A DNA stretch of 28,019 bases from Patescibacteria group bacterium (GTDB lineage Bacteria; Patescibacteriota; Minisyncoccia; UBA6257; GWB1-50-10): positions 1 to 28,019 of the forward strand of contig JBBTQX010000006.1 of assembly GCA_038065455.1 (NCBI GenBank). Reading direction: 5' to 3'. The notes below the pieces were generated by a model. The model was not told where the DNA came from. It saw only the letters and a list, made by a program, of their open reading frames with translations, and searched no databases. A program made the position numbers and the translations under genes. Shown piece after piece: positions 4,512 to 28,019 of this stretch. Each line of letters starts with the position of its first letter. The first letter of the stretch is position 1.

Positions 4512-4518
4512 ATTTTTA

Positions 4519-4646
4519 CCAGGCAGTGAAAATGCGATTGCAAGCTACGCTTGAATCTGCTATTTTATTCGACTCTATTGATTTTTTATTGTATATTTTC
4601 ATATTTTTGGTTTCACCTTAAATTTAATCGCATTTCTACTGCCTGG
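4519..4646. mobile_element. 128-bp MITE-like element (family B) inserted at the nusG stop codon
   Basis: Terminal IRs CCAGGCAGTGAAAATGCGATT / AATCGCATTTCTACTGCCTGG (19 of 21 pairing). TTA direct repeat at 4516-4518 and 4647-4649, the latter being the nusG TAA. Confidence 0.8.
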
Positions 4647-5207
4647 TTACAATTTCTTCACCTGGAGCGAATCGAGCTCCACCATTGTATCCCGGCCGAA
4701 AATCGGAACTAGGACTTTTATCTTCCCATGTTCCTCATCCAACTCGGACACTTTCCCTTCCTGATCCTTAAAAGGACCGTCGGTTATTTTTACCACCTCT
4801 CCCAGCTTCAAGTCAACTTTGAACCTCGGCTCGTTTCCGCCGATTCTCGCCATCAATTCTTCCACCTCGTCTTTCGAAAGCGGAGTCGGAGTAGCACTGT
4901 CGGCGCCCACGAAGCCCGTTACCCGAGGGGTGTTGCGCACCACATACCAGGAATCGTTGTCCAAAACCATATCCACAAGCACGTAGCCCGGATAAATCTT
5001 CTCCTCCGTCTTCAGGCGCTTGCCGTTCTTTATCTTTATCTTGGTTTCCTTCGGCACAATAACATTGAAGATTTTGTCCGTCATCGAAAGCGATTCGACG
5101 CGCTGTTTCAGGTAGCGCGCGACGGCATCCTCGTAGCCGGCGTAGGTATGGATTGCATACCAGTGGCGGCTGATTTCCTTTTGGCTTTTTTCGGATTTGA
5201 TTATCAT
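4647..5207 (-). CDS. nusG: Transcription termination/antitermination protein NusG
   Basis: WYAIHTYAGYE, YPGYVLVDM, VRNTPRVTGFVG, KOW motif VKITDGPF, IFGRDTMVEL. Confidence 0.98.
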   Translation of the reverse strand: MIIKSEKSQKEISRHWYAIHTYAGYEDAVARYLKQRVESLSMTDKIFNVIVPKETKIKIKNGKRLKTEEKIYPGYVLVDMVLDNDSWYVVRNTPRVTGFVGADSATPTPLSKDEVEELMARIGGNEPRFKVDLKLGEVVKITDGPFKDQEGKVSELDEEHGKIKVLVPIFGRDTMVELDSLQVKKL

Positions 5208-5447: not shown

Positions 5448-6029
5448 TCAACCGTTTTCAACTGCCCGGTAAACATTTACGGCGCCCTCCCTGATTACCT
5501 TAACCCGGCCATTTTTGAGCGCGATAAGCGTAGACGGCTTGGATTTGAGCATTCCTTTGTCGAGATAGAAATCCGCCCTGTCACCAAAATACTGCCGGGC
5601 TTCCCGGATATTCTTTGCGGGCGGCTCCCCTTCCCGATTGGCGCTCGGCGCCACAAGTGGTCCGGAAACATTCAAGAATTTCCTAAGAACCCTGTCATCC
5701 GGCAAACGAAAAGCGACACTCTTCCCCCTAACCGGCAAAACCACGCTTACTTTTCCCGGCCAAATTTTTTTCAATATACCCTTGGTTTTTTTGTTCAATT
5801 TCACCCCAAAAATTTTCAAATCGTTCAATTCGGAAATCAGCACGATAAGCTGTTTTTTGGCGCTTCTTTCCTTCAGTTTGTAGATTCGGGCAATCGCCCG
5901 TCGGGAAAAAGCCGAACCGACCAGGCCATAAAGAGTATCGGTTGGAAGAACGCCGATGGCTCCTTTTTTAATTTCCCGAGCCAGCTTCCGGCTGAATTTC
6001 CCGTAATTCCCGCGAATCGGTTTTTTCAT
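5448..6029 (-). CDS. tsaC: L-threonylcarbamoyladenylate synthase (TsaC/Sua5/YrdC family)
   Basis: PTDTLYGL, IYKLKER, WPG, AFRLP, PSAN, PST, IREGAV. Confidence 0.9.
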   Translation of the reverse strand: MKKPIRGNYGKFSRKLAREIKKGAIGVLPTDTLYGLVGSAFSRRAIARIYKLKERSAKKQLIVLISELNDLKIFGVKLNKKTKGILKKIWPGKVSVVLPVRGKSVAFRLPDDRVLRKFLNVSGPLVAPSANREGEPPAKNIREARQYFGDRADFYLDKGMLKSKPSTLIALKNGRVKVIREGAVNVYRAVENG

Positions 6030-6537
6030 TTTTATGGAGCAAAGAATAAACGATTGCCCAGCCGGCCAACGCGACCAAAATGCCGCCCGCGATATCCGTC
6101 GGATAATGGACGCCAGCGAAGATTCTCGCCAAACCGTTCAGGAAAGCCAGCGAAATGAACCAATAGCCCCAGCGCCGATTAAGCGAAAAAATGACGAAGC
6201 CCAAAGCAAATAAAAACGAAGCGTGGCCGGAAGGAAAGGATGTATTGGTCTCGTTCACGAGCGGCTTGAAACCCAAAGCAACGAAAGGTCTGGGGCGGGC
6301 GTAGAAATAAGCGATGGCTCCCGCGATGATTCCCCGAGAGATGAGAACTGTGAGCGCGAGACGGAGAAAAGTTCCAATCTTCGATTTCAGGCCCTTATTT
6401 TTGAAAATGAAAAATACCGCCGCGCCGAAGAGAATATAGGCTAGATATTGGGCGAAAAAAATTATAAGGCCGTCCGAAAAAACGGACCAGCCCGAAACGC
6501 CGTGAATCCAATTGAAAAGATTTATATCCCAGGCCAT
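5968..6537 (-). CDS. PAP2-family phosphatase (undecaprenyl-diphosphatase-like)
   Basis: RPRP, SFPSGH and RIFAGVHYPTD catalytic motifs, several TM segments. Confidence 0.9.
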   Translation of the reverse strand: MAWDINLFNWIHGVSGWSVFSDGLIIFFAQYLAYILFGAAVFFIFKNKGLKSKIGTFLRLALTVLISRGIIAGAIAYFYARPRPFVALGFKPLVNETNTSFPSGHASFLFALGFVIFSLNRRWGYWFISLAFLNGLARIFAGVHYPTDIAGGILVALAGWAIVYSLLHKNEKTDSRELREIQPEAGSGN

Positions 6538-6548
6538 TTGAATTTAAC

Positions 6549-6571
6549 TTAATCGCATTTCTACTGCCTGG
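6549..6571. repeat. Solo terminal repeat of the family B element abutting the rpsR stop codon
   Basis: TTAATCGCATTTCTACTGCCTGG is identical (23 of 23) to 4624-4646 and directly adjacent to the rpsR TAG (6572-6574). Confidence 0.8.
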
Positions 6572-6781
6572 CTAGCGCCTGACGAAAGGCAGAAGACCCA
6601 TCGTTCGGGACTGCTTTATGGCTTTGGCGAGGCGCCGCTGATGCTTGGCGCAGATGCCGGTGTGGCGCGGGTCGATGATTTTTCCCTGACTCGAAACGAA
6701 GCGGCGCAAAAGCTCCACTTCCTGGTAATCTATTTCCTTGGAATTCTGGGAACAAAAAAGGCACTGTTTGGCTGATTTCAT
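6572..6781 (-). CDS. rpsR: 30S ribosomal protein S18
   Basis: CLFC, IDY, LRRFVSSQGKI, TGICAKHQRRLAKAIK, GLLPF; follows rpsF-ssb. Confidence 0.97.
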   Translation of the reverse strand: MKSAKQCLFCSQNSKEIDYQEVELLRRFVSSQGKIIDPRHTGICAKHQRRLAKAIKQSRTMGLLPFVRR

Positions 6782-6904
6782 CCCGTTTAGAGACAGGATG
6801 CGCTTCTTGAGCGCATCCGTGATGCATTAATTGACTCGACTTTATTGGATTTTATTGATTGTTCGGTAATCATATTGTTCATAAGTTTGGTGTCTCTAAC
6901 GGGA
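6781..6904. mobile_element. 124-bp MITE-like element (family A, copy 1) at the rpsR start codon
   Basis: TCCCGTTTAGAGACA...TGTCTCTAACGGGA terminal IRs. TTCA direct repeat at 6777-6780 and 6905-6908. Homologous to 7387-7527 and 11634-11756. Confidence 0.85.
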
Positions 6905-6916
6905 TTCATGTTTGTT

Positions 6917-7387
6917 TTAAAATGGGATTTCTTCCGGCTTAATATCGCTTTCGTCGATATTTATCTCCGGCAATTCTTCTTCCCTCGAATCCTCCGCCTT
7001 GGGTTGGGATGGAGCGCTCGGGCGCTGTTCCCCGCCGAATTGGCCGCCGCTTCCGCCCGAAGATTTGGGACCGAATTGAATATGATCGGCAATAATTTCG
7101 GTTGTGCGCCGCGTCTGGCCCTGCTTATCCTGCCACTCTCTGGTTTGAAGCCGCCCTTCCACCATGGCTAAGCCGCCCTTCTTGAGATATTGGCTGGCGA
7201 TTTCCGCTTGTCGGCCCCAAACCACGATATTGTGGAATTCCGCTTTCTGCTGCTTCTGGCCGGACTTGTCCGTATAAAAACTATTGGTCGCAATGCCGAA
7301 GGAAGAAACCGGTTGGCCGGCCGTCGTCTGCCGGAGTTCCGGATCGCGCGTCAGATTGCCTAAGATGAAAACTTTATTGAGGTTCAT
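6917..7387 (-). CDS. ssb: Single-stranded DNA-binding protein
   Basis: NKVFILGNLTRDPELR, VEGRLQTREW, acidic C-terminus EEIPF. Confidence 0.98.
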   Translation of the reverse strand: MNLNKVFILGNLTRDPELRQTTAGQPVSSFGIATNSFYTDKSGQKQQKAEFHNIVVWGRQAEIASQYLKKGGLAMVEGRLQTREWQDKQGQTRRTTEIIADHIQFGPKSSGGSGGQFGGEQRPSAPSQPKAEDSREEELPEINIDESDIKPEEIPF

Positions 7388-7527
7388 CCCGTTAGAGGCA
7401 GGATACGCTCCTGCCTGCGCAGGCAGGCAAAAAGCGCATCCGTGATAGATTAATTGATTCGACTTTATCGGATTTCATTGATTGTTTGATGAATATATTT
7501 TTCATAATGTTTATGCCTCTAACGGGA
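7387..7527. mobile_element. 141-bp MITE-like element (family A, copy 2) at the ssb start codon, with a nested 18-bp palindrome
   Basis: TCCCGTTAGAGGCA...TGCCTCTAACGGGA IRs. TTCA direct repeat at 7383-7386 and 7528-7531. Confidence 0.85.
7410..7427. repeat. Perfect 18-bp palindrome CCTGCCTGCGCAGGCAGG nested in family A copy 2
   Basis: Absent from copies 1 and 3; accounts exactly for the 141 vs 123 bp length difference. Confidence 0.85.
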
Positions 7528-7535
7528 TTCATTTT

Positions 7536-7952
7536 TTATTGTAATATCTCTTCTATTTTCTTCTCTAAAGCTTCATTCGTCAAAGTTTTCTCCGCGGGCT
7601 TTCCGGCCGAGCTTCGAAAACTCAGGAAGGAACGGGGACGGCCTTCTTCCCTGACCTCATTTTCCGGCCTGGGCTTTTTCGCCCGGCGGAAGAAATAACG
7701 GAGCAAACTTCCCTCAAGATCGAGGTCGGTCCTCAAACCGGCGGTAGCGGAAGGTTCCATGGAAAATACCAAATGGCTGAAAAAACCATAGTTTTCTTTT
7801 TTAATGGGATAGGCAATGTGGATTTTCTCGATTGCTTTTTCCTTCGCGACTTCTCCTCCGTGCTTTGAGACGAGTTTCTTGACCGCAACGACGTTTTCGT
7901 CCTTGGTCAAAAAAGCGACTTCGTAATTTTCCGTCTTTTTATCCGGTTCCAT
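7536..7952 (-). CDS. rpsF: 30S ribosomal protein S6
   Basis: NYEVAFL, IAYPIKK, LLRYF; canonical rpsF-ssb-rpsR order. Confidence 0.88.
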   Translation of the reverse strand: MEPDKKTENYEVAFLTKDENVVAVKKLVSKHGGEVAKEKAIEKIHIAYPIKKENYGFFSHLVFSMEPSATAGLRTDLDLEGSLLRYFFRRAKKPRPENEVREEGRPRSFLSFRSSAGKPAEKTLTNEALEKKIEEILQ

Positions 7953-7972
7953 TTTATTTTTATTGCAAGATT

Positions 7973-8001
7973 AGATTATCAATCGAAATTTGGGCTGTCA
8001 A
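7973..8001 (-). promoter_or_regulatory. Putative sigma70 promoter for rpsF-ssb-rpsR: TTGACA-17bp-TAATCT (with TGn extended -10)
   Basis: tgtcaa at 7996-8001 and agatta at 7973-7978 on the + strand. Confidence 0.6.
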
Positions 8002-8036
8002 CCCCCACACCTAATTGGGATTGGATGGTGTGGGGG
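8002..8036. mobile_element. 35-bp hairpin insertion (family C) at the rpoC 3' end / rpsF -35 box
   Basis: CCCCCACACC-N15-GGTGTGGGGG flanked by a TCAA direct repeat (7998-8001 and 8037-8040). Confidence 0.65.
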
Positions 8037-11000
8037 TCAATTTTGACCTCAACTCCATAAGCTTTTCCTGGTCGACTCCCCGAAGGCCGGTGCCCACCGG
8101 AATAAGTTTTCCGATAATGACATTTTCTTTGAGGCCTCTCAAAACATCCACTTTATGCTGGACGGAAGCATCCACCAAAACGCGCGCAGTTTCCTGGAAA
8201 GAGGCCGCCGAGAGGAAACTTTCCGTTGTCAGGGACACCCGAGTTACGCCAAAAACCCTTTGGACAGCTCGCGCCGGCTGTTTCTTGGATTTTTTCGCCG
8301 CGCGGTTTACGGTCACAAACTTCGGCTTTTCTATTACTTCGCCCACCATGAAATCCGTATCGCCCGCGTCTTTCACGGCTACGCGCGAAAGCATTTGTTT
8401 CACGATTATCTCGATGTGCTTGTCGTTGATGGCGGCGCCTTCCGGCACATAAACCCGCTGGATTTCGTTTATGACGTAATGGATAAAAGCGTCGGTGCCC
8501 CGAAGGACGAGTATTTCGCGAAGATCCAAAGGACCTTCGAAAAGCTGTTCACCCTTCTTGACCTTGTCTCCGATTTTGACGAAAATCGTCGTATTCAAAG
8601 GCACGAGATATTCGAAGATATCCGCTTCCGTTTTTGTTTTCCGGCGCGTCACTTTTGCCGCTTTTTTGGGGACGGTTTCGCGGATTTTGATAACGAAGGA
8701 AAGTCCCCGTTCTTCGATATCCGAAACAATGCCGTCGGCCCGACAAAGGGCCGCCTTGCCTTTAGGCGGACGCGCTTCGAAAATTTCCTCCACCCTCGGC
8801 AAACCATGGGTGATGTCCGCGCCCGCGACGCCTCCCACATGGAAAGTTCGGAGTGTTAGCTGGGTGCCCGGCTCGCCGATAGACTGGGCGGCAACGATGC
8901 CGACGGCCTCGCCGAGTTCTACGAGCCTATTCCGGCTCAAATCCAAGCCATAGCAGGCGGCGCAAACGCCGTAGACCGTCTTGCAAGTGATGGGCGAACG
9001 AACCTTAATCGACAGTAAATCGGAATCCTGGATTTTCTTGGCCGCTTCGCGGCTCACGATTTCCCCGGCTCGCGCGACGACTTTTCTATCCACTCTTATG
9101 TCATCCAAGCTCACCCGGGAGTAAAGCCTCTCGCCGAAAGAATATCCGAAAGCGTCGCCTTCGCTCCTCACAATTTCCATTCCCTCCTTGGAACCGCAGT
9201 CTTTTTCCCTGACGAAAATTTCCTGAGCCACGTCAACCAAACGCCGGGTCAGATATCCGGCCGAGGCGGTCTTCAAAGCCGTGTCGGTCGAACCTTTGCG
9301 GGCGCCGTGCGTCGTGATGAAATATTCCAATATTTTCAAACCTTCTTTATAGGAAGAATGGGCGGGCAATTCCATCGTTTCTCCGCTCGTGTCCTGCACC
9401 AAGCCCTTCATACCCATCATCTGAACCATCTGGTTCCAGCTACCGCGGGCTTTGGAATTGATGACGGTCAAAATCGGATTGCCATCCTTGAAAGCTTTGG
9501 GAAGCGCCGCCGCCACTTTTTCCCGCGCTTCGGTCCAGATGGTCGCGATTTTGTTTTTCTTTTCGTCATTGGTCAATAAGCCATCTTCATATTGAGCTTC
9601 AATTAAGAGGGCTTCCTTGTCACTCGCCGCGATAATGGCTTCCTTTTCCACCGGAGTGATGGTATCGCCGATTCCCCAGGAAACGGATGAGACAGTCGCA
9701 TATTTGAATCCGTAATCCTTAATTTTGTCGATGTAATTCCGGCTCTCCTCTATCGTGTAATTTTCGATGATGCGGCCGACGAGATTCGAAAGTTTTTTCT
9801 TGTCCAAATCCTCGTTTACAAAATCAAAGTCCGGCGGCATAATGCCGTTGAAAATCAGCCGGCCGTAGGAAGTTTCGATGATTCCCTCTTTCGTGCCCGC
9901 CTTCACGCGCGCGTTCAAATCAATCGCGCCTTGCTCGTAAGCCATGGCGGCTTCGTTTATGTCCGAGAAAATTTTGCCTTCGCCCCTCATACCCTCCCGG
10001 ATATGAGTCAGGAAATAAATGCCCAAAACCATATCTTGCGTCGGTGAAACGATCGGCTCGCCATTCGCGGGCTTCAAGAGATTCCCTCCCGCGTCCATCA
10101 AGGTGGCGGCTTCCACCTGCGCCTCGGCCGTAAGCGGCAAATGCACGGCCATCTGGTCGCCGTCGAAGTCCGCGTTGAAAGCGGCGCAAACCAAAGGCGG
10201 AATCCGAATGGCCATATCTTCAATCAAGACCGGCTTGAAAGCCTGGATGCCCAAGCGGTGCAATGTCGGCGCGCGGTTCAAAAGCACGCGGCGATTTGCG
10301 ATGACCTCTTCGAGAATAGCCCAGATTTCGGGCGGCCCCTGCTCGATAAGCCGGTTTGCCTGTTTGATATTGAAGGCCAGTCCCCGCTCAATTATCTTGC
10401 TGATGACGAAAGGCCGGAAAAGTTCCAAAGCCAAATGCTTCGGCAAGCCGCATTCGTTCAATTTCAATTCTGGGCCGACGACAATAACCGAACGGCCGGA
10501 GTAATCCACGCGCTTGCCGAGAAGATTCTGCCGAAAACGGCCCTGTTTCCCTTTCAACATATCGGCCAAAGACCGAAGCGGCCGGCGCTTGCTCGAAAGG
10601 AGCTGGCTGCCGAGGCGGGCGGTATTGTCTATCAAAGCGTCCACCGCTTCTTGAAGCATTCGCTTTTCGTTCACGATGATAACTTCGGGGGACTTGAGCT
10701 CCAAAAGTTTTTTCAGGCGGTTGTTGCGGTTGATGACGCGGCTGTAGAGGTCGTTCAAATCGGCCGTTGCATAATGGCCGCCGTCCAAAGCCACCATCGG
10801 ACGCAAGTCCGGCGGAAGAATCGGCAAGGTCGTCATAATGCTCCATTCGGGCCGGATGCCGGACTTTATCATCAGGCGGGCGAGGCGCAAACGCATCAAT
10901 ATCCGCTTCTGGCGGTTGGCATCCTGCACCTGTTCCAATTCCTTGGTCAATTCTTTCACGGTCGCCTTAAGATCTATTTTTTCCAAAATATGGCGGATGG

Positions 11001-11634
11001 CGCCGGCGCCCTGGTCGGCTTCGAAAACATCGCCGAATCTTTCGGAAAGGCGGAAATATTCGTCCTGTGTGAGAATGAGACCGGGCTTCAAAACCGAAAT
11101 GACTTCTTTCACCTGCTCCTGTTTTTCCTTGAGGTCTTTCTCATCCATCACCTTCTCCGATTTCAGCGATTTGAATTCTTTTTCGAGTTCCGCGAGCGCC
11201 CGCTTGCGATTGTCTTCATTTATGGCCGTCACAATATATGAAGCATAGTAGATAACCTTCTCGAGTTTCGGCACGGAAATATTCAAAAGCAGGCTCAAGC
11301 GGGAAGGCACCGTTTTCAAAAACCAGATGTGCGCCACCGGCGATGCCAGCGTGATATGGCCCATCCGTTCGCGGCGGACCGCCGCGCGCGTCACTTCGAC
11401 GCCGCACTTCTCGCAAACGACGCCCTTATAGCGGATTTTCTTGTACTTGCCGCAATAGCATTCGTAATCTTTGGTCGGTCCGAAAATTCTTTCGGAAAAC
11501 AAGCCATCCTTTTCCGGCCGCTGGGTGCGGTAATTCAAAGTCTCGGGCTTGATTACTTCGCCGTGCGACCAGGAGAGAATCTCTTCGGGGCTCGCCAGAC
11601 TGATGGATATGGATTTGAGATCGTGGTTATTCAT
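8011..11634 (-). CDS. rpoC: DNA-directed RNA polymerase subunit beta'
   Basis: NADFDGDQM catalytic motif, GKQGRFRQNLLGKRVDYSGRSVIV, SIGEPGTQLT, GLKENVIIG. Confidence 0.99.
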   Translation of the reverse strand: MNNHDLKSISISLASPEEILSWSHGEVIKPETLNYRTQRPEKDGLFSERIFGPTKDYECYCGKYKKIRYKGVVCEKCGVEVTRAAVRRERMGHITLASPVAHIWFLKTVPSRLSLLLNISVPKLEKVIYYASYIVTAINEDNRKRALAELEKEFKSLKSEKVMDEKDLKEKQEQVKEVISVLKPGLILTQDEYFRLSERFGDVFEADQGAGAIRHILEKIDLKATVKELTKELEQVQDANRQKRILMRLRLARLMIKSGIRPEWSIMTTLPILPPDLRPMVALDGGHYATADLNDLYSRVINRNNRLKKLLELKSPEVIIVNEKRMLQEAVDALIDNTARLGSQLLSSKRRPLRSLADMLKGKQGRFRQNLLGKRVDYSGRSVIVVGPELKLNECGLPKHLALELFRPFVISKIIERGLAFNIKQANRLIEQGPPEIWAILEEVIANRRVLLNRAPTLHRLGIQAFKPVLIEDMAIRIPPLVCAAFNADFDGDQMAVHLPLTAEAQVEAATLMDAGGNLLKPANGEPIVSPTQDMVLGIYFLTHIREGMRGEGKIFSDINEAAMAYEQGAIDLNARVKAGTKEGIIETSYGRLIFNGIMPPDFDFVNEDLDKKKLSNLVGRIIENYTIEESRNYIDKIKDYGFKYATVSSVSWGIGDTITPVEKEAIIAASDKEALLIEAQYEDGLLTNDEKKNKIATIWTEAREKVAAALPKAFKDGNPILTVINSKARGSWNQMVQMMGMKGLVQDTSGETMELPAHSSYKEGLKILEYFITTHGARKGSTDTALKTASAGYLTRRLVDVAQEIFVREKDCGSKEGMEIVRSEGDAFGYSFGERLYSRVSLDDIRVDRKVVARAGEIVSREAAKKIQDSDLLSIKVRSPITCKTVYGVCAACYGLDLSRNRLVELGEAVGIVAAQSIGEPGTQLTLRTFHVGGVAGADITHGLPRVEEIFEARPPKGKAALCRADGIVSDIEERGLSFVIKIRETVPKKAAKVTRRKTKTEADIFEYLVPLNTTIFVKIGDKVKKGEQLFEGPLDLREILVLRGTDAFIHYVINEIQRVYVPEGAAINDKHIEIIVKQMLSRVAVKDAGDTDFMVGEVIEKPKFVTVNRAAKKSKKQPARAVQRVFGVTRVSLTTESFLSAASFQETARVLVDASVQHKVDVLRGLKENVIIGKLIPVGTGLRGVDQEKLMELRSKLTPTPSNPN

Positions 11635-11756
11635 CCCGTTAGAGACAGGATGCGCTCAAAAAGCGCATCCGTGATGGATTAGTTAACTCGACTTTATTGG
11701 ATTTCATTGATTGTTTGGTAATCATATTTTTCATAAGGCTTATGTCTCTAACGGGA
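11634..11756. mobile_element. 123-bp MITE-like element (family A, copy 3) at the rpoC start codon
   Basis: TCCCGTTAGAGACA...TGTCTCTAACGGGA IRs. TTCA direct repeat at 11630-11633 and 11757-11760. Confidence 0.85.
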
Positions 11757-11757
11757 T

Positions 11758-14700
11758 TCATTCTTCCTTTTCTTCATTATCCTCCCGACTGTCTTCATAT
11801 TCGTAATTCACATTCAAACCCAAGGATTTCAATTCGGAGACCAATACATTGAAGGACGCGGGGATGTTCGGCTTCTTGATTTCCTGTCCGCGGATAATCG
11901 ATTCGAAAGCCGCTGAGCGTCCGAGCACATCATCCGATTTTATCGTGAGCATCTCCTGGAGCGTGTGCGCCGCGCCGTAGCCCTCGAGAGCCCACACTTC
12001 CATCTCGCCGAAGCGTTGGCCGCCCAATTGGGCTTTGCCGCCCAAGGGCTGCTGGGTAATGAGCGAGTAGGGTCCGGTCGAGCGGACGTGCATCTTGTCC
12101 TCCACCAAATGGTTCAGTTTCATTATGTACATATAACCGACGGTCACCGGCTCTTTAAATGCCAACCCATCCTGGCCGTTCCAAACCGTCATCTTGCCGG
12201 TCTCGGAAAATCCCGCGGCTTTGAGTTCGTTCCGGATGTCTTCCTCGCTCGGGCCCACGAAATTCGGCACCACGGCCCGATAGCCGAGTTTGTTGGCCGC
12301 GAGGCCCAAATGGGTTTCCAATATCTGGCCCAGATTCATACGGCTTGCGACACCCAGCGGATTCAAAACTATGTCCACCGGCGTGCCGTCTTCGAGATAC
12401 GGCATGCTCTCCATTTTGCGAATCTGGGAAATGACGCCTTTGTTGCCGTAGCGGCCGGCCAGCTTATCGCCCGCCCGTATCTTGCGCAACTGAGCCACCT
12501 CAATTTGAATTTTTGTAATAATACCCGGCTCGAGCTTATCGCCCTTATCGCGCGAGAATATCTTGATGCCGATGATGCGGCCCTGCTTGCCGTGGGGCAT
12601 CGTGAGCGAGGAATCTTTCACATCGCGGGCCTTCTCGCCGAAAATAGCGCGAAGTAATCTTTCTTCGGAGGTCAGTTCCGATTCGCCTTTGGGCGAAATC
12701 TTTCCGACCAGAATATCGTTGGCCCGCACTTCGGCGCCAATGCGAACAATGCCGTCCGCGTCCAAGTTCCTCAGTTTTTCTTCGGCCACGTTCGGAATAT
12801 CGGGCGTCATCATCTCCGGTCCGAGTTTGGTATCGCGCACCAGGCAAGTGAAAGTTTCGATGTAAATGGAGGTGAAGAAATCATCCCGCGCCACCCGTTC
12901 GGAAATAACGATGGCATCCTCGAAGTTGCCGCCCTGCCAGGGCAGGAAGGCCACGAGCAAGTTCCGACCCAAGGCCAGAACGCCGTCCTTGGTCGCGGGG
13001 CCGTCGGCCAGGACCGTGCCCGGCTTCACTTTGTCTCCCACCGAAACGGCCGGCCGTTGAGTCATGCAGGTGGACTGGTTGGAACGCTTGAATTTGTAGA
13101 GATTGAAAGTTTTATTGCCGTCGGAAGTTTTCACGGTGACGGCGCGTCCGTCCGCTTCCGTCACGATGCCGCTCACGTCCGAGATAATCACCTGGCCGGA
13201 ATCCTGGGCGGCTTTTTCCTCCTCGCCGGTCGATACCAGCGGCGCTTCGGGATTCAAAGTCGGCGTGGCTTGCCTCTGCATGTTCGAACCCATCAAGACG
13301 CGGTTCGCATCGTTGTGCTCCAAAAACGGAATAAGCGACGTGGAAACGCTGAAGAGCTGGTTCGGAGAAATGTCGATGAGATCGACTTCTTCGCGCCGGC
13401 AGATGCCCGGCACGCCTTTGTTCCTCGCCGAAATAATCGGTTCGGCGATAAATCCTTTTTCGTCGGTCTTCACATCCGCCTGGGCGATGTTGTATTTCTG
13501 CTCGTTAATCGCGTCGAGCCAAATCGTGTCTTTGGTGACCGTACCATTCTTGATTTTGAAATAAGGCGTTTCCAAAAAACCGAAATCGTTCACGCGAGTG
13601 TAGTTCGCCAAATAGTTCACGAGGCCGATGTTCGTGCCTTCGGGAGTGGCAATCGGACAAATACGCCCATAATAGGACGGATGCACGTCGCGGACTTCGA
13701 AACCCGCGCGCTCGCGCGTGAGACCGCCCGGGCCCATCGCCGATATTCTGCGTTTATGTTCGAGTTCGGCAAGCGGATTAACCTGGTCCATAAATTGCGA
13801 AAGCTGGGAAGCGGCGAAAAAGTCACGCACGACTGAGGTTAAAAGTTTGTAGTTGATGAGCTGGGCCGGCTGAAGTGTTTTCCTTTCCAAAGTGGACATT
13901 CTATCTTGGATGCCGCGCTTCAGGCGGGCGAAACCTACCCGCAAACGGGCCTGAACCAACTCGCCTACGGAACGAATCCTGCGATTGCCCAAATGGTCGA
14001 TATCATCCGGTTCGGCGTTCAGATTATTGTTCAGGCGAATCATCTCCGAAATAGCGGCGATAAGGTCTTCCAAATCCAGGAGCCGGCTGTCTTTCTTTCC
14101 AAGCTCCAGACGCTGATTGAATTTATAGCGGCCAACCGGGCTTATATCATAGCGGTCAAAGCGCGAAAACATCGGCTCAACCAGAAGCCGAGCGTTCTCG
14201 ACAGTCGCGAGATCTCCCGGCCGGAGGCGGCGATAAAGTTCAACAAAGGATTCGTCCGCATTCTTCGCATCATCCTTTTTGAGGGTTGCTTGGATGTACT
14301 TTATGGCGCCGGTATCCACCTTGGCGAAGGCCTTCAAAATCTCGTCGTTATCCTTCAGCCCGAAAACGCGGAGCAGCTGGGTGACGGGCGCTTTGCGGCG
14401 GCGGTCGATTTTCACGCCCAGAAATCCGTCAGCTTCGGTATCCAACTCCACCCAAGCGCCGCGATTCGGAATTATTTTCCCGCCAAAAAGCTTCCGGCCG
14501 CGGAACATATTGGCCGTGAAATAAATTCCCGGCGAACGGATAATCTGCGAGATCACCACCCGTTCCACGCCGTTCACGATGAAAGTGCCCCGCGCGGTCA
14601 TCAGCGGGAAATCACCGAGATAAACTTCCTGAACTTTGGATTGCTTGGTTTCCCGGCTTACCAGTTTCACGTTCACTCGAAGCGGCGCCTCGAACGTCTG

Positions 14701-14931
14701 GTCCTTCTCCGTTGATTTAGCTTCGCTGTATTTCGGCTGGTCGAATTTGTAATCCAAAAAGCTCAATTCCAATTCTTTACCGGTGTGATCCTTAATCGGA
14801 GAAATCTCTTCGAACAATTCTCGGATTCCTTTTTCCAAAAACCACTTGTAGGAATTGATTTGAGTCTCCACCAAATTCAAAGGAGCGAAGGTCGGACCCT
14901 GGTAAGACGAAAATATTTTTGTTTTGCGCAT
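11758..14931 (-). CDS. rpoB: DNA-directed RNA polymerase subunit beta
   Basis: DIDHLGNRRIR, SQLSQFMDQ, GSNMQRQA, GDKLAGRYGNKG, GGQRFGEMEVWALE. Confidence 0.99.
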   Translation of the reverse strand: MRKTKIFSSYQGPTFAPLNLVETQINSYKWFLEKGIRELFEEISPIKDHTGKELELSFLDYKFDQPKYSEAKSTEKDQTFEAPLRVNVKLVSRETKQSKVQEVYLGDFPLMTARGTFIVNGVERVVISQIIRSPGIYFTANMFRGRKLFGGKIIPNRGAWVELDTEADGFLGVKIDRRRKAPVTQLLRVFGLKDNDEILKAFAKVDTGAIKYIQATLKKDDAKNADESFVELYRRLRPGDLATVENARLLVEPMFSRFDRYDISPVGRYKFNQRLELGKKDSRLLDLEDLIAAISEMIRLNNNLNAEPDDIDHLGNRRIRSVGELVQARLRVGFARLKRGIQDRMSTLERKTLQPAQLINYKLLTSVVRDFFAASQLSQFMDQVNPLAELEHKRRISAMGPGGLTRERAGFEVRDVHPSYYGRICPIATPEGTNIGLVNYLANYTRVNDFGFLETPYFKIKNGTVTKDTIWLDAINEQKYNIAQADVKTDEKGFIAEPIISARNKGVPGICRREEVDLIDISPNQLFSVSTSLIPFLEHNDANRVLMGSNMQRQATPTLNPEAPLVSTGEEEKAAQDSGQVIISDVSGIVTEADGRAVTVKTSDGNKTFNLYKFKRSNQSTCMTQRPAVSVGDKVKPGTVLADGPATKDGVLALGRNLLVAFLPWQGGNFEDAIVISERVARDDFFTSIYIETFTCLVRDTKLGPEMMTPDIPNVAEEKLRNLDADGIVRIGAEVRANDILVGKISPKGESELTSEERLLRAIFGEKARDVKDSSLTMPHGKQGRIIGIKIFSRDKGDKLEPGIITKIQIEVAQLRKIRAGDKLAGRYGNKGVISQIRKMESMPYLEDGTPVDIVLNPLGVASRMNLGQILETHLGLAANKLGYRAVVPNFVGPSEEDIRNELKAAGFSETGKMTVWNGQDGLAFKEPVTVGYMYIMKLNHLVEDKMHVRSTGPYSLITQQPLGGKAQLGGQRFGEMEVWALEGYGAAHTLQEMLTIKSDDVLGRSAAFESIIRGQEIKKPNIPASFNVLVSELKSLGLNVNYEYEDSREDNEEKEE

Positions 14932-25056: not shown

Positions 25057-25077
25057 ACACTGAGCTTGTCGAAGTGT
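25057..25077. repeat. REP-like palindromic unit ACACTGAGCTTGTCGAAGTGT
   Basis: ACACT...AGTGT arms around GAGCTTGTCGA. Resembles the CTTCGACAAGCTCAG REP-like motif as I recall it; single copy in this window. Confidence 0.45.
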
Positions 25078-25226
25078 GCCCTTTGTTTGAAAATGCGCGA
25101 ACCTATTTTGAACGGAACTGACCGCCTCCGCTTCGCTCCGGCGGAACGCTCGGGTGCGGCGGAATTCCCCCCACACCCCCCTTCCGCCGCCCCCTCGCTC
25201 CCACAGCGAAAAATTTTTGCGGGCTT
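25076..25226 (+). repeat. 151-bp GC-rich inverted repeat, left copy
   Basis: Reverse complement of 27772-27922; no mismatch seen by eye, and the ORF track gives the same peptide from both copies. Confidence 0.95.
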
Positions 25227-25228
25227 TG

Positions 25229-25855
25229 TCAATTCGTAAATTTTATCCAAAGAAAAATTGCAAAAATTATGATTGCTATGATTCCAAAATTTTTCCAGAA
25301 ACTAAGTTGTTTTAATGTTTTGGTCTGACTTTCTGCTTGATTTTCTAAAATCGAGGAAAGGTTCGTCAGAAAAAAGTCAGCCGGATAACTATGTATAATT
25401 GGCGTTCCCATTACATCTTGCGGTGCCCAAATAACATGAACAGCACCATTTTTATATCTCCATGGGATTGCATACCAATCCCATAATTGAATAGCAAAAG
25501 CTCGGCGATTTAATCCCTTGTACATTTTTTCCGCCGATTCAATTTTTGTTCCCTTCTGCCAATCCGCAAGATTTATAGGGACATTTGCGTCCTTCATCAA
25601 TTTTTCTAATAGAGTTATTTCCTCGAAATAATCCGCTTCAATATCTTTATTACCGGAAGACATACTATAATCGGATGATAGCCTTTCAGAAATATCAGGA
25701 GCGGAGAACCCATTAAGGCAAGCATATTTAAGAGGAAAATCAGAAATAGCGAGGCGATTTTCGCCGTTCTTCAATGTCTTTATCGCCTGTTCTATAAGCG
25801 GTTTGAAGTCTTTGCAGTGCAACGGTTTTGATTTTTCGATATCGTGTAAATTCAT
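25229..25855 (-). CDS. Hypothetical protein with C-terminal TM helix
   Basis: 208-aa ORF ending FGIIAIIIFAIFLWIKFTN; last gene of the cassette. Confidence 0.75.
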   Translation of the reverse strand: MNLHDIEKSKPLHCKDFKPLIEQAIKTLKNGENRLAISDFPLKYACLNGFSAPDISERLSSDYSMSSGNKDIEADYFEEITLLEKLMKDANVPINLADWQKGTKIESAEKMYKGLNRRAFAIQLWDWYAIPWRYKNGAVHVIWAPQDVMGTPIIHSYPADFFLTNLSSILENQAESQTKTLKQLSFWKNFGIIAIIIFAIFLWIKFTN

Positions 25856-27653: not shown

Positions 27654-27771
27654 AGCATTTGGTTTCACTATCACAATTTAGTATATGCAATTTTTCACTT
27701 TTTATCAAATGAATTTTAGGGAGTTCCTTGCTCTTTTCCGCGCAGGGAGGGAGGGGCAAGGAAAAGAATTG

Positions 27772-27922
27772 AAGCCCGCAAAAATTTTTCGCTGTGGGAG
27801 CGAGGGGGCGGCGGAAGGGGGGTGTGGGGGGAATTCCGCCGCACCCGAGCGTTCCGCCGGAGCGAAGCGGAGGCGGTCAGTTCCGTTCAAAATAGGTTCG
27901 CGCATTTTCAAACAAAGGGCAC
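27772..27922 (-). repeat. 151-bp GC-rich inverted repeat, right copy
   Basis: Reverse complement of 25076-25226; embedded in a longer hairpin-rich non-coding region running to the window end. Confidence 0.95.
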
Positions 27923-28019
27923 CAAATTGGACTTCGCGATTTTTTGGAAGCCAAAGCGATAGTCTGCTCGCCGCGCCTGCGGGCGCGGCTCGCAAGGAAT
28001 TGGGCGGTAAAATCATACG

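What the first reader, a model, noticed from the sequence alone, without database searches (positions are those of the whole stretch)
6777..11761. Start-codon-targeting mini-elements in essential operons (rpsR, ssb, rpoC)
Seen: three homologous 123-141-bp elements (6781-6904, 7387-7527, 11634-11756), all in the same orientation, with 14-bp terminal IRs (TCCCGTTAGAGRCA). On the mRNA strand each reads ATGAA-[TCCCGTTAGAG...CTCTAACGGG]-ATGAA, where the second ATG is the gene's start. Deleting the element and one repeat restores tight operon junctions: rpoB/rpoC as an ATGA overlap, rpsF TAA-AAA-ATG ssb, and ssb TAA-7nt-ATG rpsR. Inference: a non-autonomous MITE-like family that inserts at ATGAA and regenerates the start codon, so it can occupy essential operons without disrupting genes. 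No transposase is in the window.
Basis: partly seen in the sequence, partly recalled or inferred. Interest (0 to 1): 0.9.

Follow-up and report, generated by a model that had tools for sequence, protein, structure and literature searches.

The report
Mini-transposons that rebuild start codons
Three ~125-bp mobile inserts sit exactly on the start codons of rpsR, ssb and rpoC and rebuild the ATG they split. They are stripped-down copies of a 278-bp element that encodes only a tiny GIY-YIG nuclease, which may be an unusually small and undescribed kind of transposon.

Summary
The three elements (6781-6904, 7387-7527, 11634-11756) belong to a family of 24 inverted-repeat-bounded elements in this 654-kb genome. 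19 of the 24 abut the ATG of a real gene. Same-genus relatives have clean empty sites at rpoB/rpoC and rpsF/ssb.

The anatomy needs refining. The terminal repeat is T-CCCGTTAGAG...CTCTAACGGG-A and the target duplication is 4 bp, mostly TGAA. The element's last A plus the duplicated TG rebuilds ATG.

A likely autonomous partner exists. Two 278-bp copies with the same ends encode an 87-95-aa single-domain GIY-YIG nuclease of UPF0213/Slx1 type. Its ORF runs from repeat to repeat, and its TGA stop lies in the duplicated target, giving an ATGA overlap. The only DDE transposase found in the genome has unrelated ends.

Exact repeat pairs occur in at least 120 stretches from Patescibacteria, Omnitrophota, Planctomycetota and Elusimicrobiota MAGs. 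The closest published system is Ssn/NTS (PMC11893778). My searches found no description of mobility, start-codon targeting or MITE derivatives. Whether the nuclease drives transposition is inferred, not shown.

The parts
11634..11756 (-). Element e3 (123 bp, T...A-inclusive terminal repeats), immediately 5' of rpoC. Its terminal base at 11634 is the A of the rpoC ATG (11634-11632).
   Evidence: It is 100% identical over 135 bp to a copy at G000:C4:68596-68730. It is absent from G004, G001 and G002 at the orthologous junction.
7387..7527 (-). Element e2 (141 bp), immediately 5' of ssb. Base 7387 is the A of the ssb ATG. It carries an 18-bp expansion of the subterminal hairpin.
   Evidence: The site is empty in G004, G001 and G002. 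G003 has a divergent copy at the same site.
6781..6904 (-). Element e1 (124 bp; one extra T in the repeat at 6782-6792), immediately 5' of rpsR. Base 6781 is the A of the rpsR ATG.
   Evidence: A homologous copy sits at the same site in G002. There is none in G001, G003 or G004.
11630..11633 (-). Target-site duplication, copy next to rpoC (TGAA on the mRNA strand). Its TG completes the regenerated ATG.
   Evidence: The 4-bp model is supported by 59 of 95 elements in other genomes.
11757..11760 (-). Target-site duplication, upstream copy. Together with A11761 it forms the orphaned original ATG, which overlaps the rpoB TGA stop (11760-11758).
7383..7386 (-). Target-site duplication (TGAA), copy next to ssb.
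7528..7531 (-). Target-site duplication (TGAA), upstream copy. The orphaned ATG is at 7532-7530.
6777..6780 (-). Target-site duplication (TGAA), copy next to rpsR.
6905..6908 (-). Target-site duplication (TGAA), upstream copy. The orphaned ATG is at 6909-6907.
11648..11670 (-). Subterminal hairpin of e3 (GGATGCGC / GCGCATCC), 3 nt from the core of the gene-proximal repeat.
   Evidence: A hairpin at this position has z<-2 in 46 of 66 copies from many genomes, with many different stem sequences. On the other side of the element only 3 of 66 do.
7401..7441 (-). Subterminal hairpin of e2 (extended stem).
6796..6818 (-). Subterminal hairpin of e1.
8011..11634 (-). rpoC (1207 aa), host gene whose start codon is rebuilt by e3.
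   Evidence: RNA_pol_Rpb1 domains 1-5; domain 1 aligns from residue 4.
11758..14931 (-). rpoB (1057 aa), upstream gene. Its stop overlaps the orphaned ATG.
6917..7387 (-). ssb (156 aa), host gene of e2.
6572..6781 (-). rpsR (69 aa), host gene of e1.
7536..7952 (-). rpsF (138 aa), upstream of e2.

Best explanation
The three inserts are non-autonomous, MITE-like deletion derivatives of a very compact mobile element.

Shown. The full element is about 275 bp. It is bounded by about 17-bp terminal inverted repeats (T-CCCGTTAGAGRY...). It encodes one protein, an 87-95-aa single-domain GIY-YIG nuclease of the UPF0213/Slx1 type. Insertion duplicates 4 bp of target, usually TGAA. In the Patescibacteria (T...A) subfamily the target is almost always the TGAA, TGGA or TGAG inside ATGRR at the start of a gene. 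The element's terminal A plus the duplicated TG rebuilds the ATG, so the gene keeps its start codon. In the protein-coding form, the same duplicated TGA is the nuclease's stop codon, giving an ATGA overlap with the host gene.

Inferred.
- The nuclease, made from the autonomous copies, acts in trans on the shared repeats. It probably works as a structure- or ssDNA-specific nuclease on the stem formed by the two repeats and the subterminal hairpin. Host repair would complete the cut/copy-and-paste.
- The host gene is still translated. The ribosome that loads at the orphaned upstream ATG (3 nt before the 5' repeat arm) may melt the 15-bp terminal stem and free the rebuilt ATG.
- The start-codon bias reflects both target preference (ATGRR) and removal of disruptive insertions by selection.
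For: Mobility.
- The family has 24 copies in G000.
- e3 is 100% identical over 135 bp to a copy on another contig.
- Empty sites occur in congeners at all three window sites, and the empty rpoB/rpoC junction also appears in contigs of two runs.
- Flanks covary (TGGA/TGGA, TGAG/TGAG, TCAA/TCAA). The 4-bp duplication is perfect in 16 of 21 T..A copies in G000.
- It is perfect in 59 of 95 elements from 80 loci of other genomes: TGAA 27, TGGA 13, TGAG 7.
- The terminal bases covary as T..A (61 of 95) or C..G (31 of 95). In the C..G class the rebuilt start reads GTG.

Start codons.
- 19 of 24 copies in G000 abut a start codon.
- Pfam names 18 of the 19 downstream genes: SMC, a PBP transpeptidase, S4, L36, SecF, LeuRS, FtsH, a class I W/Y tRNA synthetase, iPGM, RecR, Rpe, S18, SSB, RpoC and others.
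- In 12 of them the first domain aligns from residue 1-14.
- In T..A elements with a duplication, the base before it is A in 40 of 43.
- Background in G000 is 154 start, 157 intergenic and 1856 intragenic ATGAA sites.

Autonomous partner.
- Two 278-bp copies, 99.6% identical over 284 bp, lie before recR and before a 414-aa gene.
- They hit Pfam GIY-YIG at E 5.5e-16.
- A match to the protein was found in 118 of 151 genomes of the order.
- 14 of 30 fetched loci have strict T..A repeat pairs. All 14 are followed by ATG, and 12 by an ORF of at least 150 aa.
- Variant repeats covary at both ends (CCCGTACGAA in L054 and L057).
- Median dN/dS is 0.16 over 139 pairs, with catalytic-type residues invariant.
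- The MITE 3' ends share the subterminal GCGC(T/A)TCCTGTCTC with the coding element.
- The fold model has pLDDT 92.8. Its nearest structures are UPF0213 BH0048 and Slx1.

No rival enzyme.
- The only multi-copy DDE element is a 1114-bp rve/HTH element with unrelated TG...CA ends.
- No IS-sized pair of these repeats encloses an ORF.
Against: - No GIY-YIG enzyme is known to catalyse transposition. They are hydrolytic nucleases, so joining would need host functions. Nothing here shows catalysis.
- The duplication is imperfect or absent in 5 of 21 G000 copies and in 36 of 95 elements elsewhere.
- Three copies have an inverted flank (TTCA...TGAA), which a simple staggered cut does not predict.
- The subterminal hairpin that is so conserved in the MITEs is not evident in the coding element.
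- Exact-repeat coding copies were found in only 17 of 151 genomes of the order, whereas short copies are commoner.
- The start-codon excess over intergenic ATGAA sites (19 of 20; P about 2e-5) rests on my crude ORF-based gene calls. It also assumes that intergenic insertions are neutral.
- A small ORF running from the orphaned ATG to the TAA in the 3' repeat is open in 11 of 17 G000 copies. Across other genomes only 9 of 43 stop there and 30 stop early. Classical termination-reinitiation coupling is therefore not a conserved feature.
- Phylum labels come from MAG record titles and some bins may be mixed.
Confidence: 0.72

Rival explanations
1. The short elements are ordinary MITEs mobilised by a conventional (DDE-type) transposase that is lost, unassembled or resident in another replicon. 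The GIY-YIG gene would be a passenger, or a separate selfish gene that uses the same ends.
For: Terminal inverted repeats plus a short fixed-length target duplication are the hallmark of DDE transposition (established knowledge). G000 does contain a DDE (rve) element in two copies. The short copies are more widespread than exact-repeat coding copies.
Against: The rve element's ends (TG...CA type) are unrelated to CCCGTTAGAG. No repeat pair within 3.5 kb encloses a transposase-sized ORF. In 14 of 30 loci from other genomes the nuclease ORF fills the space between strict repeat pairs, with its C-terminus encoded by the repeat and its stop in the duplication. That arrangement is hard to see as a passenger. 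Variant repeats track protein divergence.
Confidence: 0.15
2. The nuclease-plus-repeat system is a domesticated host function, for example ssDNA restriction or control of recombination or transformation as proposed for Ssn/NTS in Neisseria. On this view the repeats spread by recombination rather than by nuclease-driven transposition.
For: Ssn nucleases are single-domain, about 94-aa GIY-YIG proteins flanked by their cognate hairpin repeats. They cut ssDNA near the repeat and modulate transformation. The authors suggest domestication of an IS-like unit (PMC11893778; Results and Discussion read). The nuclease here is under purifying selection.
Against: Target duplications, clean empty sites and identical copies at unrelated loci are insertion signatures, not recombination products. 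Distribution among genomes is patchy and crosses phyla. There are 1-2 coding copies at different loci in different genomes. The Neisseria-type core ATTCCC-N8-GGGAAT has 0 matches in G000. A host role on top of mobility is not excluded.
Confidence: 0.08
3. The elements are conserved cis-regulatory leader RNAs of essential genes and are not mobile DNA.
For: They are transcribed-strand features directly before start codons. They fold into a very stable structure (z -5.7 to -8.0). One contig from an RNA library carries e3 joined to the first 40 nt of rpoC with 0 differences.
Against: Orthologous genes in congeners lack them. They precede 19 functionally unrelated genes. They carry target duplications. 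Some copies encode a nuclease. Rfam gave 0 matches at E<=1 over 6000-12500.
Confidence: 0.03

Closest known systems
Ssn nucleases with NTS/SRM hairpin repeats (Chenal et al., Nat Commun 2025, PMC11893778). I read the abstract, part 1 of Results, section 10 and the Discussion. I did not see the supplements.
   Same: A single-domain GIY-YIG protein of about 90-95 aa. The gene is flanked on both sides by its cognate repeat. The same repeat occurs in many extra copies in the genome, and repeat and protein co-vary. The authors note that the unit looks like an insertion sequence. Ssn cuts ssDNA upstream of a hairpin, and also when the hairpin is assembled from two oligos. That would fit cleavage at the base of a stem made by two terminal repeats.
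   Different: Ssn is assigned to CDD cd10448. The protein here scores best against UPF0213/YazA/Slx1-type proteins, and cd10448 membership could not be tested. Here the repeats are the two halves of one terminal inverted repeat, not two separate hairpins. There is a 4-bp target duplication, there are empty sites, and there are about 120-bp non-coding derivatives that sit on start codons. The paper's main text contains no occurrence of 'Patescibacteria', 'Candidatus' or 'start codon'. The Neisseria core motif is absent from G000.
Bacterial MITEs such as Correia, ERIC and MITEAba12 (recalled, except MITEAba12, which I saw only in a search listing).
   Same: Small size (about 110-140 bp), terminal inverted repeats, target duplication, many copies, no conserved ORF of their own, co-transcription with neighbouring genes, and a longer partner with the same ends.
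   Different: The partner encodes a GIY-YIG nuclease rather than a DDE transposase, and is itself only about 275 bp. The target is the start codon, which is rebuilt from the element's last base. I know of no MITE with that property, and the searches found none.
Rickettsia palindromic elements (recalled: Ogata et al. 2000).
   Same: Palindromic mini-elements tolerated inside essential genes because they keep the reading frame. Here 3 of 24 copies are in-frame inside coding sequence: an aminoacyl-tRNA synthetase, HsdS and a prepilin leader. The Ssn paper lists Rickettsia among genomes rich in Ssn-related motifs.
   Different: Most copies here are not inside ORFs but exactly at their 5' edge. A coding partner is identified here.
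IS200/IS605 with REP/RAYT (recalled; also discussed in PMC11893778).
   Same: Very small elements, subterminal hairpins, short sequence-specific targets, and a nuclease that reads DNA secondary structure.
   Different: Those use an HUH Y1 transposase, have no terminal inverted repeats and make no target duplication. Here both are present.
Free-standing GIY-YIG homing endonuclease genes such as the Seg proteins and I-TevI (recalled). The I-TevI catalytic domain is a weak structural neighbour.
   Same: A selfish GIY-YIG nuclease gene lodged between host genes and phenotypically silent for the host.
   Different: Homing enzymes carry a separate DNA-binding domain and spread to the same allele by recombination. 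This protein is the catalytic domain alone, and copies lie at many unrelated loci with duplications and inverted repeats.

Membership tests
MITE (miniature inverted-repeat transposable element) | Terminal inverted repeats | tested here: met
   About 15-17 bp perfect repeats, T-CCCGTTAGAGAC(A) / (T)GTCTCTAACGGG-A, in all three window copies.
MITE (miniature inverted-repeat transposable element) | Target-site duplication of fixed length | tested here: met
   A perfect 4-bp duplication in 16 of 21 G000 T..A copies and in 59 of 95 elements from other genomes. Several different tetranucleotides covary between the two flanks.
MITE (miniature inverted-repeat transposable element) | Small, multi-copy, with no conserved coding capacity | tested here: met
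   17 copies of 109-139 bp in G000. The short ORF from the upstream ATG stops early in 30 of 43 copies elsewhere.
MITE (miniature inverted-repeat transposable element) | Presence/absence polymorphism at orthologous sites | tested here: met
   Empty sites in G004, G001 and G002, and an empty rpoB/rpoC junction in contigs of runs X9 and X6.
MITE (miniature inverted-repeat transposable element) | A longer autonomous element with the same ends that encodes a transposase | tested here: inconclusive
   A longer element with the same ends exists (278 bp, 2 copies). It encodes a GIY-YIG nuclease, which is not a recognised transposase class, and its activity is untested.
Insertion sequence (classical) | Encodes a DDE, HUH, serine or tyrosine transposase | tested here: not met
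   The only ORF is a GIY-YIG domain (Pfam PF01541, E 5.5e-16).
Ssn family (cd10448) with SRM repeats | Single-domain GIY-YIG protein of about 90-100 aa | tested here: met
   87 aa from its own ATG, 95 aa from the upstream ATG. One GIY-YIG domain spans residues 9-76. The model is a single compact domain.
Ssn family (cd10448) with SRM repeats | Assignment to CDD cd10448 | not testable with these tools
   No CDD library and no Ssn reference sequence were available. The best sequence and fold neighbours are UPF0213 BH0048, YazA and Slx1.
Ssn family (cd10448) with SRM repeats | Gene flanked on both sides by its cognate hairpin-forming repeat, which is also dispersed in the genome | tested here: inconclusive
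   The gene is flanked by the two arms of one inverted repeat, which is dispersed in 24 copies. These are not two self-contained hairpins, and the Neisseria core motif has 0 matches in G000.
Ssn family (cd10448) with SRM repeats | Site-specific cleavage of ssDNA only | not testable with these tools
   This needs biochemistry.
UPF0213 / Slx1-like GIY-YIG (URI) nucleases | GIY-YIG fold and sequence similarity to UPF0213 or Slx1 | tested here: met
   PDB 1zg2 (UPF0213 BH0048) at E 3.3e-12 by sequence. Foldseek ranks 1zg2 first, followed by Slx1 chains with TMq 0.58-0.64. B. subtilis yazA is 44% identical over 76% of the query. Invariant residues include Y5, Y16, R24, R26, H30 and E63.
Free-standing GIY-YIG homing endonuclease | [quoted passage not shown] | tested here: not met
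   The 87-aa protein has only the catalytic domain and a C-terminal helix.
Known structured RNA family (Rfam 15) | Match to a curated covariance model | tested here: not met
   0 matches at E<=1 in window 6000-12500.

The most novel reading that the evidence does not exclude
The 87-aa single-domain, Slx1-like GIY-YIG nuclease is itself the mobilising enzyme of a new class of prokaryotic DNA transposon. At about 275 bp this would be the smallest autonomous mobile element known to me. Its ORF spans the element from one terminal repeat to the other. It borrows its stop codon (and sometimes its start) from the host start-codon target. It parasitises the transcription and translation signals of essential genes while rebuilding their ATG. 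It has crossed between Patescibacteria, Omnitrophota, Planctomycetota and Elusimicrobiota.
Probability: 0.45. Interest if true: 0.92.

Novelty: new variant of a known kind. Interest (0 to 1): 0.8.

Why it matters
If the nuclease drives mobility, this adds a nuclease class (GIY-YIG) to the short list of enzymes known to move DNA transposons in prokaryotes. It would also set a new lower size limit for an autonomous element.

It gives the recently described Ssn-type nuclease/repeat pairs, whose biological role outside Neisseria is open, a concrete evolutionary reading as active or recently active mobile elements. That reading comes with testable insertion signatures.

The design is a clean example of a 'stealth' insertion strategy. 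One 4-bp duplication serves at once as the host's start codon (together with the element's last base) and as the parasite's stop codon. This explains how repeats can colonise rpoC, ssb, ribosomal-protein and tRNA-synthetase genes in a 0.65-Mb genome with 92% coding density.

In practice, these inserts shift or extend start-codon calls. 94-95-aa versions of the nuclease called from the upstream ATG are in the databases. The repeats also break assemblies of candidate-phyla genomes.

The sequence-specific small nuclease with a defined about 17-nt site may be useful as a tool, as proposed for Ssn.

Tried and rejected
1. Termination-reinitiation coupling through a conserved small ORF. In G000, 11 of 17 short copies are open from the orphaned ATG to the TAA inside the 3' repeat. 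In other genomes only 9 of 43 are, and 30 of 43 stop early. The G000 figure reflects related copies, so I dropped this as a general feature.

2. A 5-bp ATGAA duplication. I rejected it in favour of 4 bp plus a terminal T...A or C...G. In C..G elements the left flank reads ATGAA-C and the right reads G-TGAA. In a T..A copy in the prepilin gene the left flank reads GTGAA and the right reads ATGAA.

3. A DDE parent. The only long repeat is 1114 bp in two copies. It encodes an rve/HTH protein, but its ends are unrelated.

4. Rfam gave no match.

5. Promoter and terminator scan. There is a weak sigma-70-like match (9 of 12) inside e1 and e3 in the sense direction, with the repeat's GAGACA as the first hexamer. 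I give it no weight.

6. Within-population polymorphism. All runs are held as contigs. Contigs of X9 and X6 join 11635 to 11771/11773 with 10-12 other letters between. That matches the G004-type empty junction, so it comes from relatives and is not proof of excision in this strain. The RNA-library contig over e3 and rpoC may be carried-over DNA.

7. AGTCG internal motif. It is present in only 22 of 66 copies, so I did not pursue it.

8. Neisseria NTS/dRS3 core: 0 matches in G000.

9. Ssn membership. I could not obtain a reference Ssn sequence or CDD. A plasmid tblastn found YazA-type hits only.

11. Literature. Searches found no paper describing GIY-YIG elements with terminal repeats and target duplications, or start-codon-rebuilding MITEs. 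Subscription journals and the supplements of PMC11893778 were not visible and could bear on this.

12. I did not run complex prediction, the search of protein representatives, the protein-atlas search or build_rna_model.

Full report
**The observation**

The window is a whole 28,019-bp contig (C6) of a 654,420-bp, 10-contig genome with 100% marker completeness. On the - strand it carries rpoB, rpoC, rpsF, ssb and rpsR (Pfam).

Aligned on the mRNA strand, they share 84% column identity. Each reads ...ATGAA-T-CCCGTTAGAG(A/G)CA ... TG(T/C)CTCTAACGGG-A-TGAA... The final A-TG is the start codon of rpsR (6781), ssb (7387) or rpoC (11634). The pattern is far from chance. It matches 19 times per strand in this genome, while the reversed control matches 0 times in all 41 genomes searched.

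**The family in this genome**

A tolerant scan for paired ends found 24 elements:
- 17 of 109-139 bp
- 2 of 278 bp
- 3 of 66-72 bp with GC-rich cores
- 2 of 30-40 bp

Nineteen of them are followed at once by an ATG that opens a long ORF: all 17 mid-sized copies and both 278-bp copies. In all 19 the hairpin or ORF end of the element faces the gene.

Pfam names 18 of the 19 downstream genes:
- SMC
- a PBP transpeptidase
- ribosomal proteins S4, L36 and S18
- SecF
- a GFO-type protein
- a GT2 glycosyltransferase
- LeuRS
- an AI-2E transporter
- FtsH
- a TraG-like ATPase
- a class I W/Y tRNA synthetase
- iPGM
- SSB
- RpoC
- RecR
- Rpe

In 12 of them the first domain aligns from residue 1-14. The ATG after the element is therefore the true N-terminus.

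**Background**

I removed the elements in silico and called ORFs crudely (713 ORFs, 92% coding). The genome then has 2167 ATGAA sites: 154 at called starts, 157 intergenic and 1856 inside genes. Finding 19 of 21 T..A-type elements at starts has P about 3e-20 against all sites. Against only the 'tolerable' start plus intergenic sites, 19 of 20 has P about 2e-5. The second figure depends on my gene calls and on treating intergenic DNA as neutral.

**Empty sites**

Same-genus G004 is 91% identical in nucleotides. It has ...AAAGATGAATAACCACGATCTC... at rpoB/rpoC and ...CTACAATGAATTTAAAT... at rpsF/ssb. These are exactly the sequences obtained by removing an element and one repeat.

Other relatives give this picture:
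- G001 and G002 are also empty at both sites.
- G003 keeps only a left repeat and about 45 nt at rpoC, and has a divergent full copy at ssb.
- G002 shares the rpsR copy.
- G009, from another genus, has a different element with its own inverted repeat directly before the rpoC ATG.

Contigs of runs X9 and X6 join 11635 to 11771/11773 with 10-12 other letters. This reproduces the G004-type junction. Many contigs in these runs match only the element and then diverge at 11630/11761 and 7383/7532, as expected of a dispersed repeat. e3 is 100% identical over 135 bp to a copy before a TraG-like gene on contig C4, which suggests recent movement.

**Refined anatomy**

Flank pairs covary: TGGA/TGGA twice, TGAG/TGAG and TCAA/TCAA.

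I examined 95 elements from 80 loci fetched from other species' genomes. The base outside the CCCG core is T on one side and A on the other in 61. It is C and G in 31, and mixed in 3. It is therefore part of the inverted repeat.

With that base assigned to the element, a perfect 4-bp duplication is present in 59 of 95. The counts are:
- TGAA 27
- TGGA 13
- TGAG 7
- TAAA/TTTA 6
- TCAA 2
- four other tetranucleotides, once each

In C..G elements at gene starts the left flank is ATGAA-C and the right is G-TGAA, so the rebuilt start reads GTG. This rules out a 5-bp duplication. In T..A elements with a duplication, the preceding base is A in 40 of 43. The target is thus effectively ATG(A/G)(A/G).

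By record title, the T..A class is almost confined to Patescibacteria-labelled MAGs, where 44 of 51 copies are at starts. The C..G class dominates in Planctomycetota, Omnitrophota and Elusimicrobiota MAGs and is mostly not at starts (4 of 18).

**The subterminal hairpin**

A hairpin abuts the gene-proximal repeat. Its sequence differs from copy to copy but its position is fixed, ending 3 nt from the repeat core. 46 of 66 copies have z<-2 there, against 3 of 66 on the other side.

As RNA, each window element folds into a 15-bp terminal stem stacked on this hairpin, at -38 to -60 kcal/mol and z -5.7 to -8.0. By eye, about 5 of the 66 are in the opposite orientation.

**The coding partner**

The two 278-bp copies are 99.6% identical over 284 bp. 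One lies before a 414-aa gene on C2 and the other before recR on C8. They have the same repeats and flanks. They encode MYYNYVLRS...KNRLKRFLSLTG. The evidence on this protein is:
- Pfam GIY-YIG at E 5.5e-16
- PDB UPF0213 BH0048 at E 3.3e-12
- B. subtilis YazA 44% identical over 76% of the query
- a confident single-domain model, pLDDT 92.8, nearest to BH0048 and to the Slx1 nuclease domain

The last five residues are encoded by the right repeat. The stop codon is the TGA of the duplicated target, giving GGG-A-TGA-A, an ATGA overlap with the host gene.

A search with this protein matched 118 of 151 genomes of the order, often 4-10 times per genome. Of 30 fetched loci, 14 have strict T..A repeat pairs around the ORF. 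All 14 are followed by ATG and 12 by an ORF of at least 150 aa. Eight have a perfect TGAA duplication. Others have one-base repeat variants, or covarying variants such as CCCGTACGAA...TTCGTACGGG. More distant proteins carry other repeats, such as ACCCTGTTAAATAA, followed by TAAATG.

Twenty-one ORFs give a median dN/dS of 0.16, although dS is near saturation. Catalytic-type residues are invariant in 37 database relatives. The databases hold at least 1986 clusters of close relatives. They are named only 'GIY-YIG nuclease family protein', 'putative endonuclease' or, wrongly, 'excinuclease ABC subunit C'.

G000 also has a repeat-less small GIY-YIG gene on C7 and a 400-aa open frame with a GIY-YIG match on C9 (probably UvrC; I did not check).

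**Other enzymes**

The only long repeat in G000 is a 1114-bp two-copy element. It encodes an rve/HTH (DDE) protein, but its ends are unrelated to this family. No repeat pair up to 3.5 kb apart encloses a transposase-sized ORF.

**Distribution**

They come from many Parcubacteria/Paceibacteria lineages, Uhrbacteria and Doudnabacteria. They also come from MAGs labelled Saccharibacteria, Omnitrophota, Planctomycetota and Elusimicrobiota, including contigs of 172-284 kb.

Coding-size exact pairs are in 17 of 151 genomes of the order, spread over many families, with 0 control matches. A passage in a Patescibacteria gene-transfer paper lists GIY-YIG proteins among genes predicted to have moved from Patescibacteria to other bacteria (PMC12455944).

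**How it most likely works**

Shown:
- The elements insert and are lost.
- They duplicate 4 bp.
- They rebuild the start codon from their own last base.
- A conserved nuclease gene occupies the same ends.

Inferred: the nuclease acts on the repeats. Its closest relatives by fold are structure-selective (Slx1). The closest published analogue, Ssn, binds a hairpin in ssDNA and cuts upstream of it, even when the hairpin is made of two strands (PMC11893778). That suits cleavage at the base of the stem formed by the two repeat arms next to the conserved hairpin. How the ends are joined, and why three copies carry an inverted flank (TTCA...TGAA), is unexplained.

Translation of the host gene must survive, because rpoC, ssb and ribosomal-protein genes are occupied. 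I suggest that initiation at the orphaned upstream ATG, 3 nt before the 5' arm, opens the stem. The conserved-small-ORF version of this idea failed.

**Comparison with what is known**

In architecture the short copies meet the criteria of a MITE. The coding copy looks like an insertion sequence but fails the defining criterion of a recognised transposase. The nearest published system is Ssn/NTS. Its authors noted the IS-like layout and proposed domestication. The parts I read did not report duplications, empty sites, non-coding derivatives, start-codon targets or Patescibacteria; I could not see the supplements. Eight literature searches found nothing closer.

**Verdict**

I add a candidate autonomous partner and a corrected insertion geometry. 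I rate this a new variant of a known kind, with interest 0.8. The strongest open claim is that a single-domain GIY-YIG nuclease is a transposase. I put that at about 0.45.

Noticed in passing
window 4518-4647 (full copy); 6543-6574 (solo end just 3' of rpsR); elsewhere in G000, e.g. C2:40809-40953 and C5:15091-15220: A second mini-element family has different, slightly asymmetric terminal repeats (ACCAGGCAGTGAAAATGCGAT / ACCAGGCAGTAGAAATGCGAT). I found about 17 paired copies. One end usually lies 5-9 nt upstream of an ATG, and the flanks suggest a TAA duplication. Its coding counterpart is a frameshifted GIY-YIG pseudogene at G000:C2:77643-77956, followed by TAAATG.
   Followed up: partly
window 25076-25235 and 27766-27924: A GC-rich repeat of about 160 bp is present as an inverted pair 2.5 kb apart. 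Self-BLAST also lists many other 140-170-bp repeats in G000, which I did not compare with this pair. It is unrelated to the CCCGTTAGAG family and I did not characterise it.
   Followed up: no
G000:C4:18656-18721: A 66-bp C..G-type element is inserted in-frame (22 codons) in the anticodon-binding domain of a class I aminoacyl-tRNA synthetase (759-codon open frame). No duplication is visible.
   Followed up: partly
G000:C8:43685-43756: A 72-bp element with a TGAA duplication lies in-frame in the leader peptide of a prepilin-type protein on the opposite strand. It lengthens the leader from 15 to 41 residues just before the G|FTLVE methylation motif, so the mature pilin would be unchanged.
   Followed up: partly
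G000:C8:6169-6198 and C8:82470-82509: There are 30- and 40-bp C..G mini-copies with a TAAA duplication. The first is in-frame between the two target-recognition domains of an HsdS (Methylase_S) gene.
   Followed up: partly
L130:5473-5710; L096:5899-6278; G017:C8:34943-35104: Tandem elements occur, in two cases separated by just the 6-nt ATGAAT. The rebuilt site therefore remains a target, and there is no target immunity.
   Followed up: no
G000:C4:38108-38216; L027 (G003 ssb start); L154:2775-2889: In three copies the upstream flank is the reverse complement of the downstream duplication (TTCA...TGAA or CTCA...TGAG), which extends the palindrome into the flanks. The simple staggered-cut model does not explain this.
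   Followed up: no
L009 (G009:C3), rpoB/rpoC junction: Another genus has a different mini-element (repeat TCCCTCATCCTTCAAAGAT...ATCTTTGAAAGGTGAGGGA, also with a subterminal hairpin) directly before the rpoC ATG. The same start codon has been colonised independently by another family.
   Followed up: no
G010:C36:9714-9830 and G139:C19:76160-76427: Pairs of CCCGTTAGAA repeats enclose what look like tRNA genes.
   Followed up: no
G000:C8:60505-61618 and 81221-82334: A 1114-bp stretch encoding an rve/HTH (IS481- or IS3-like) DDE transposase is present in two 100% identical copies, with TG...CA-type ends. It is the only conventional IS seen in this 654-kb genome.
   Followed up: partly
window 11748-11721 and 6896-6869 (- strand): A weak sigma-70-like match (GAGACA-16-TATGAT, 9 of 12) lies inside e3 and e1, reading towards the host gene. 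The repeat itself provides the first hexamer.
   Followed up: no
L031 (G025), rpsF/ssb spacer: The 231-nt spacer holds yet another inverted-repeat element (AACCCCGCCCTCTA...TAGAGGGCGGGGT) upstream of ssb.
   Followed up: no
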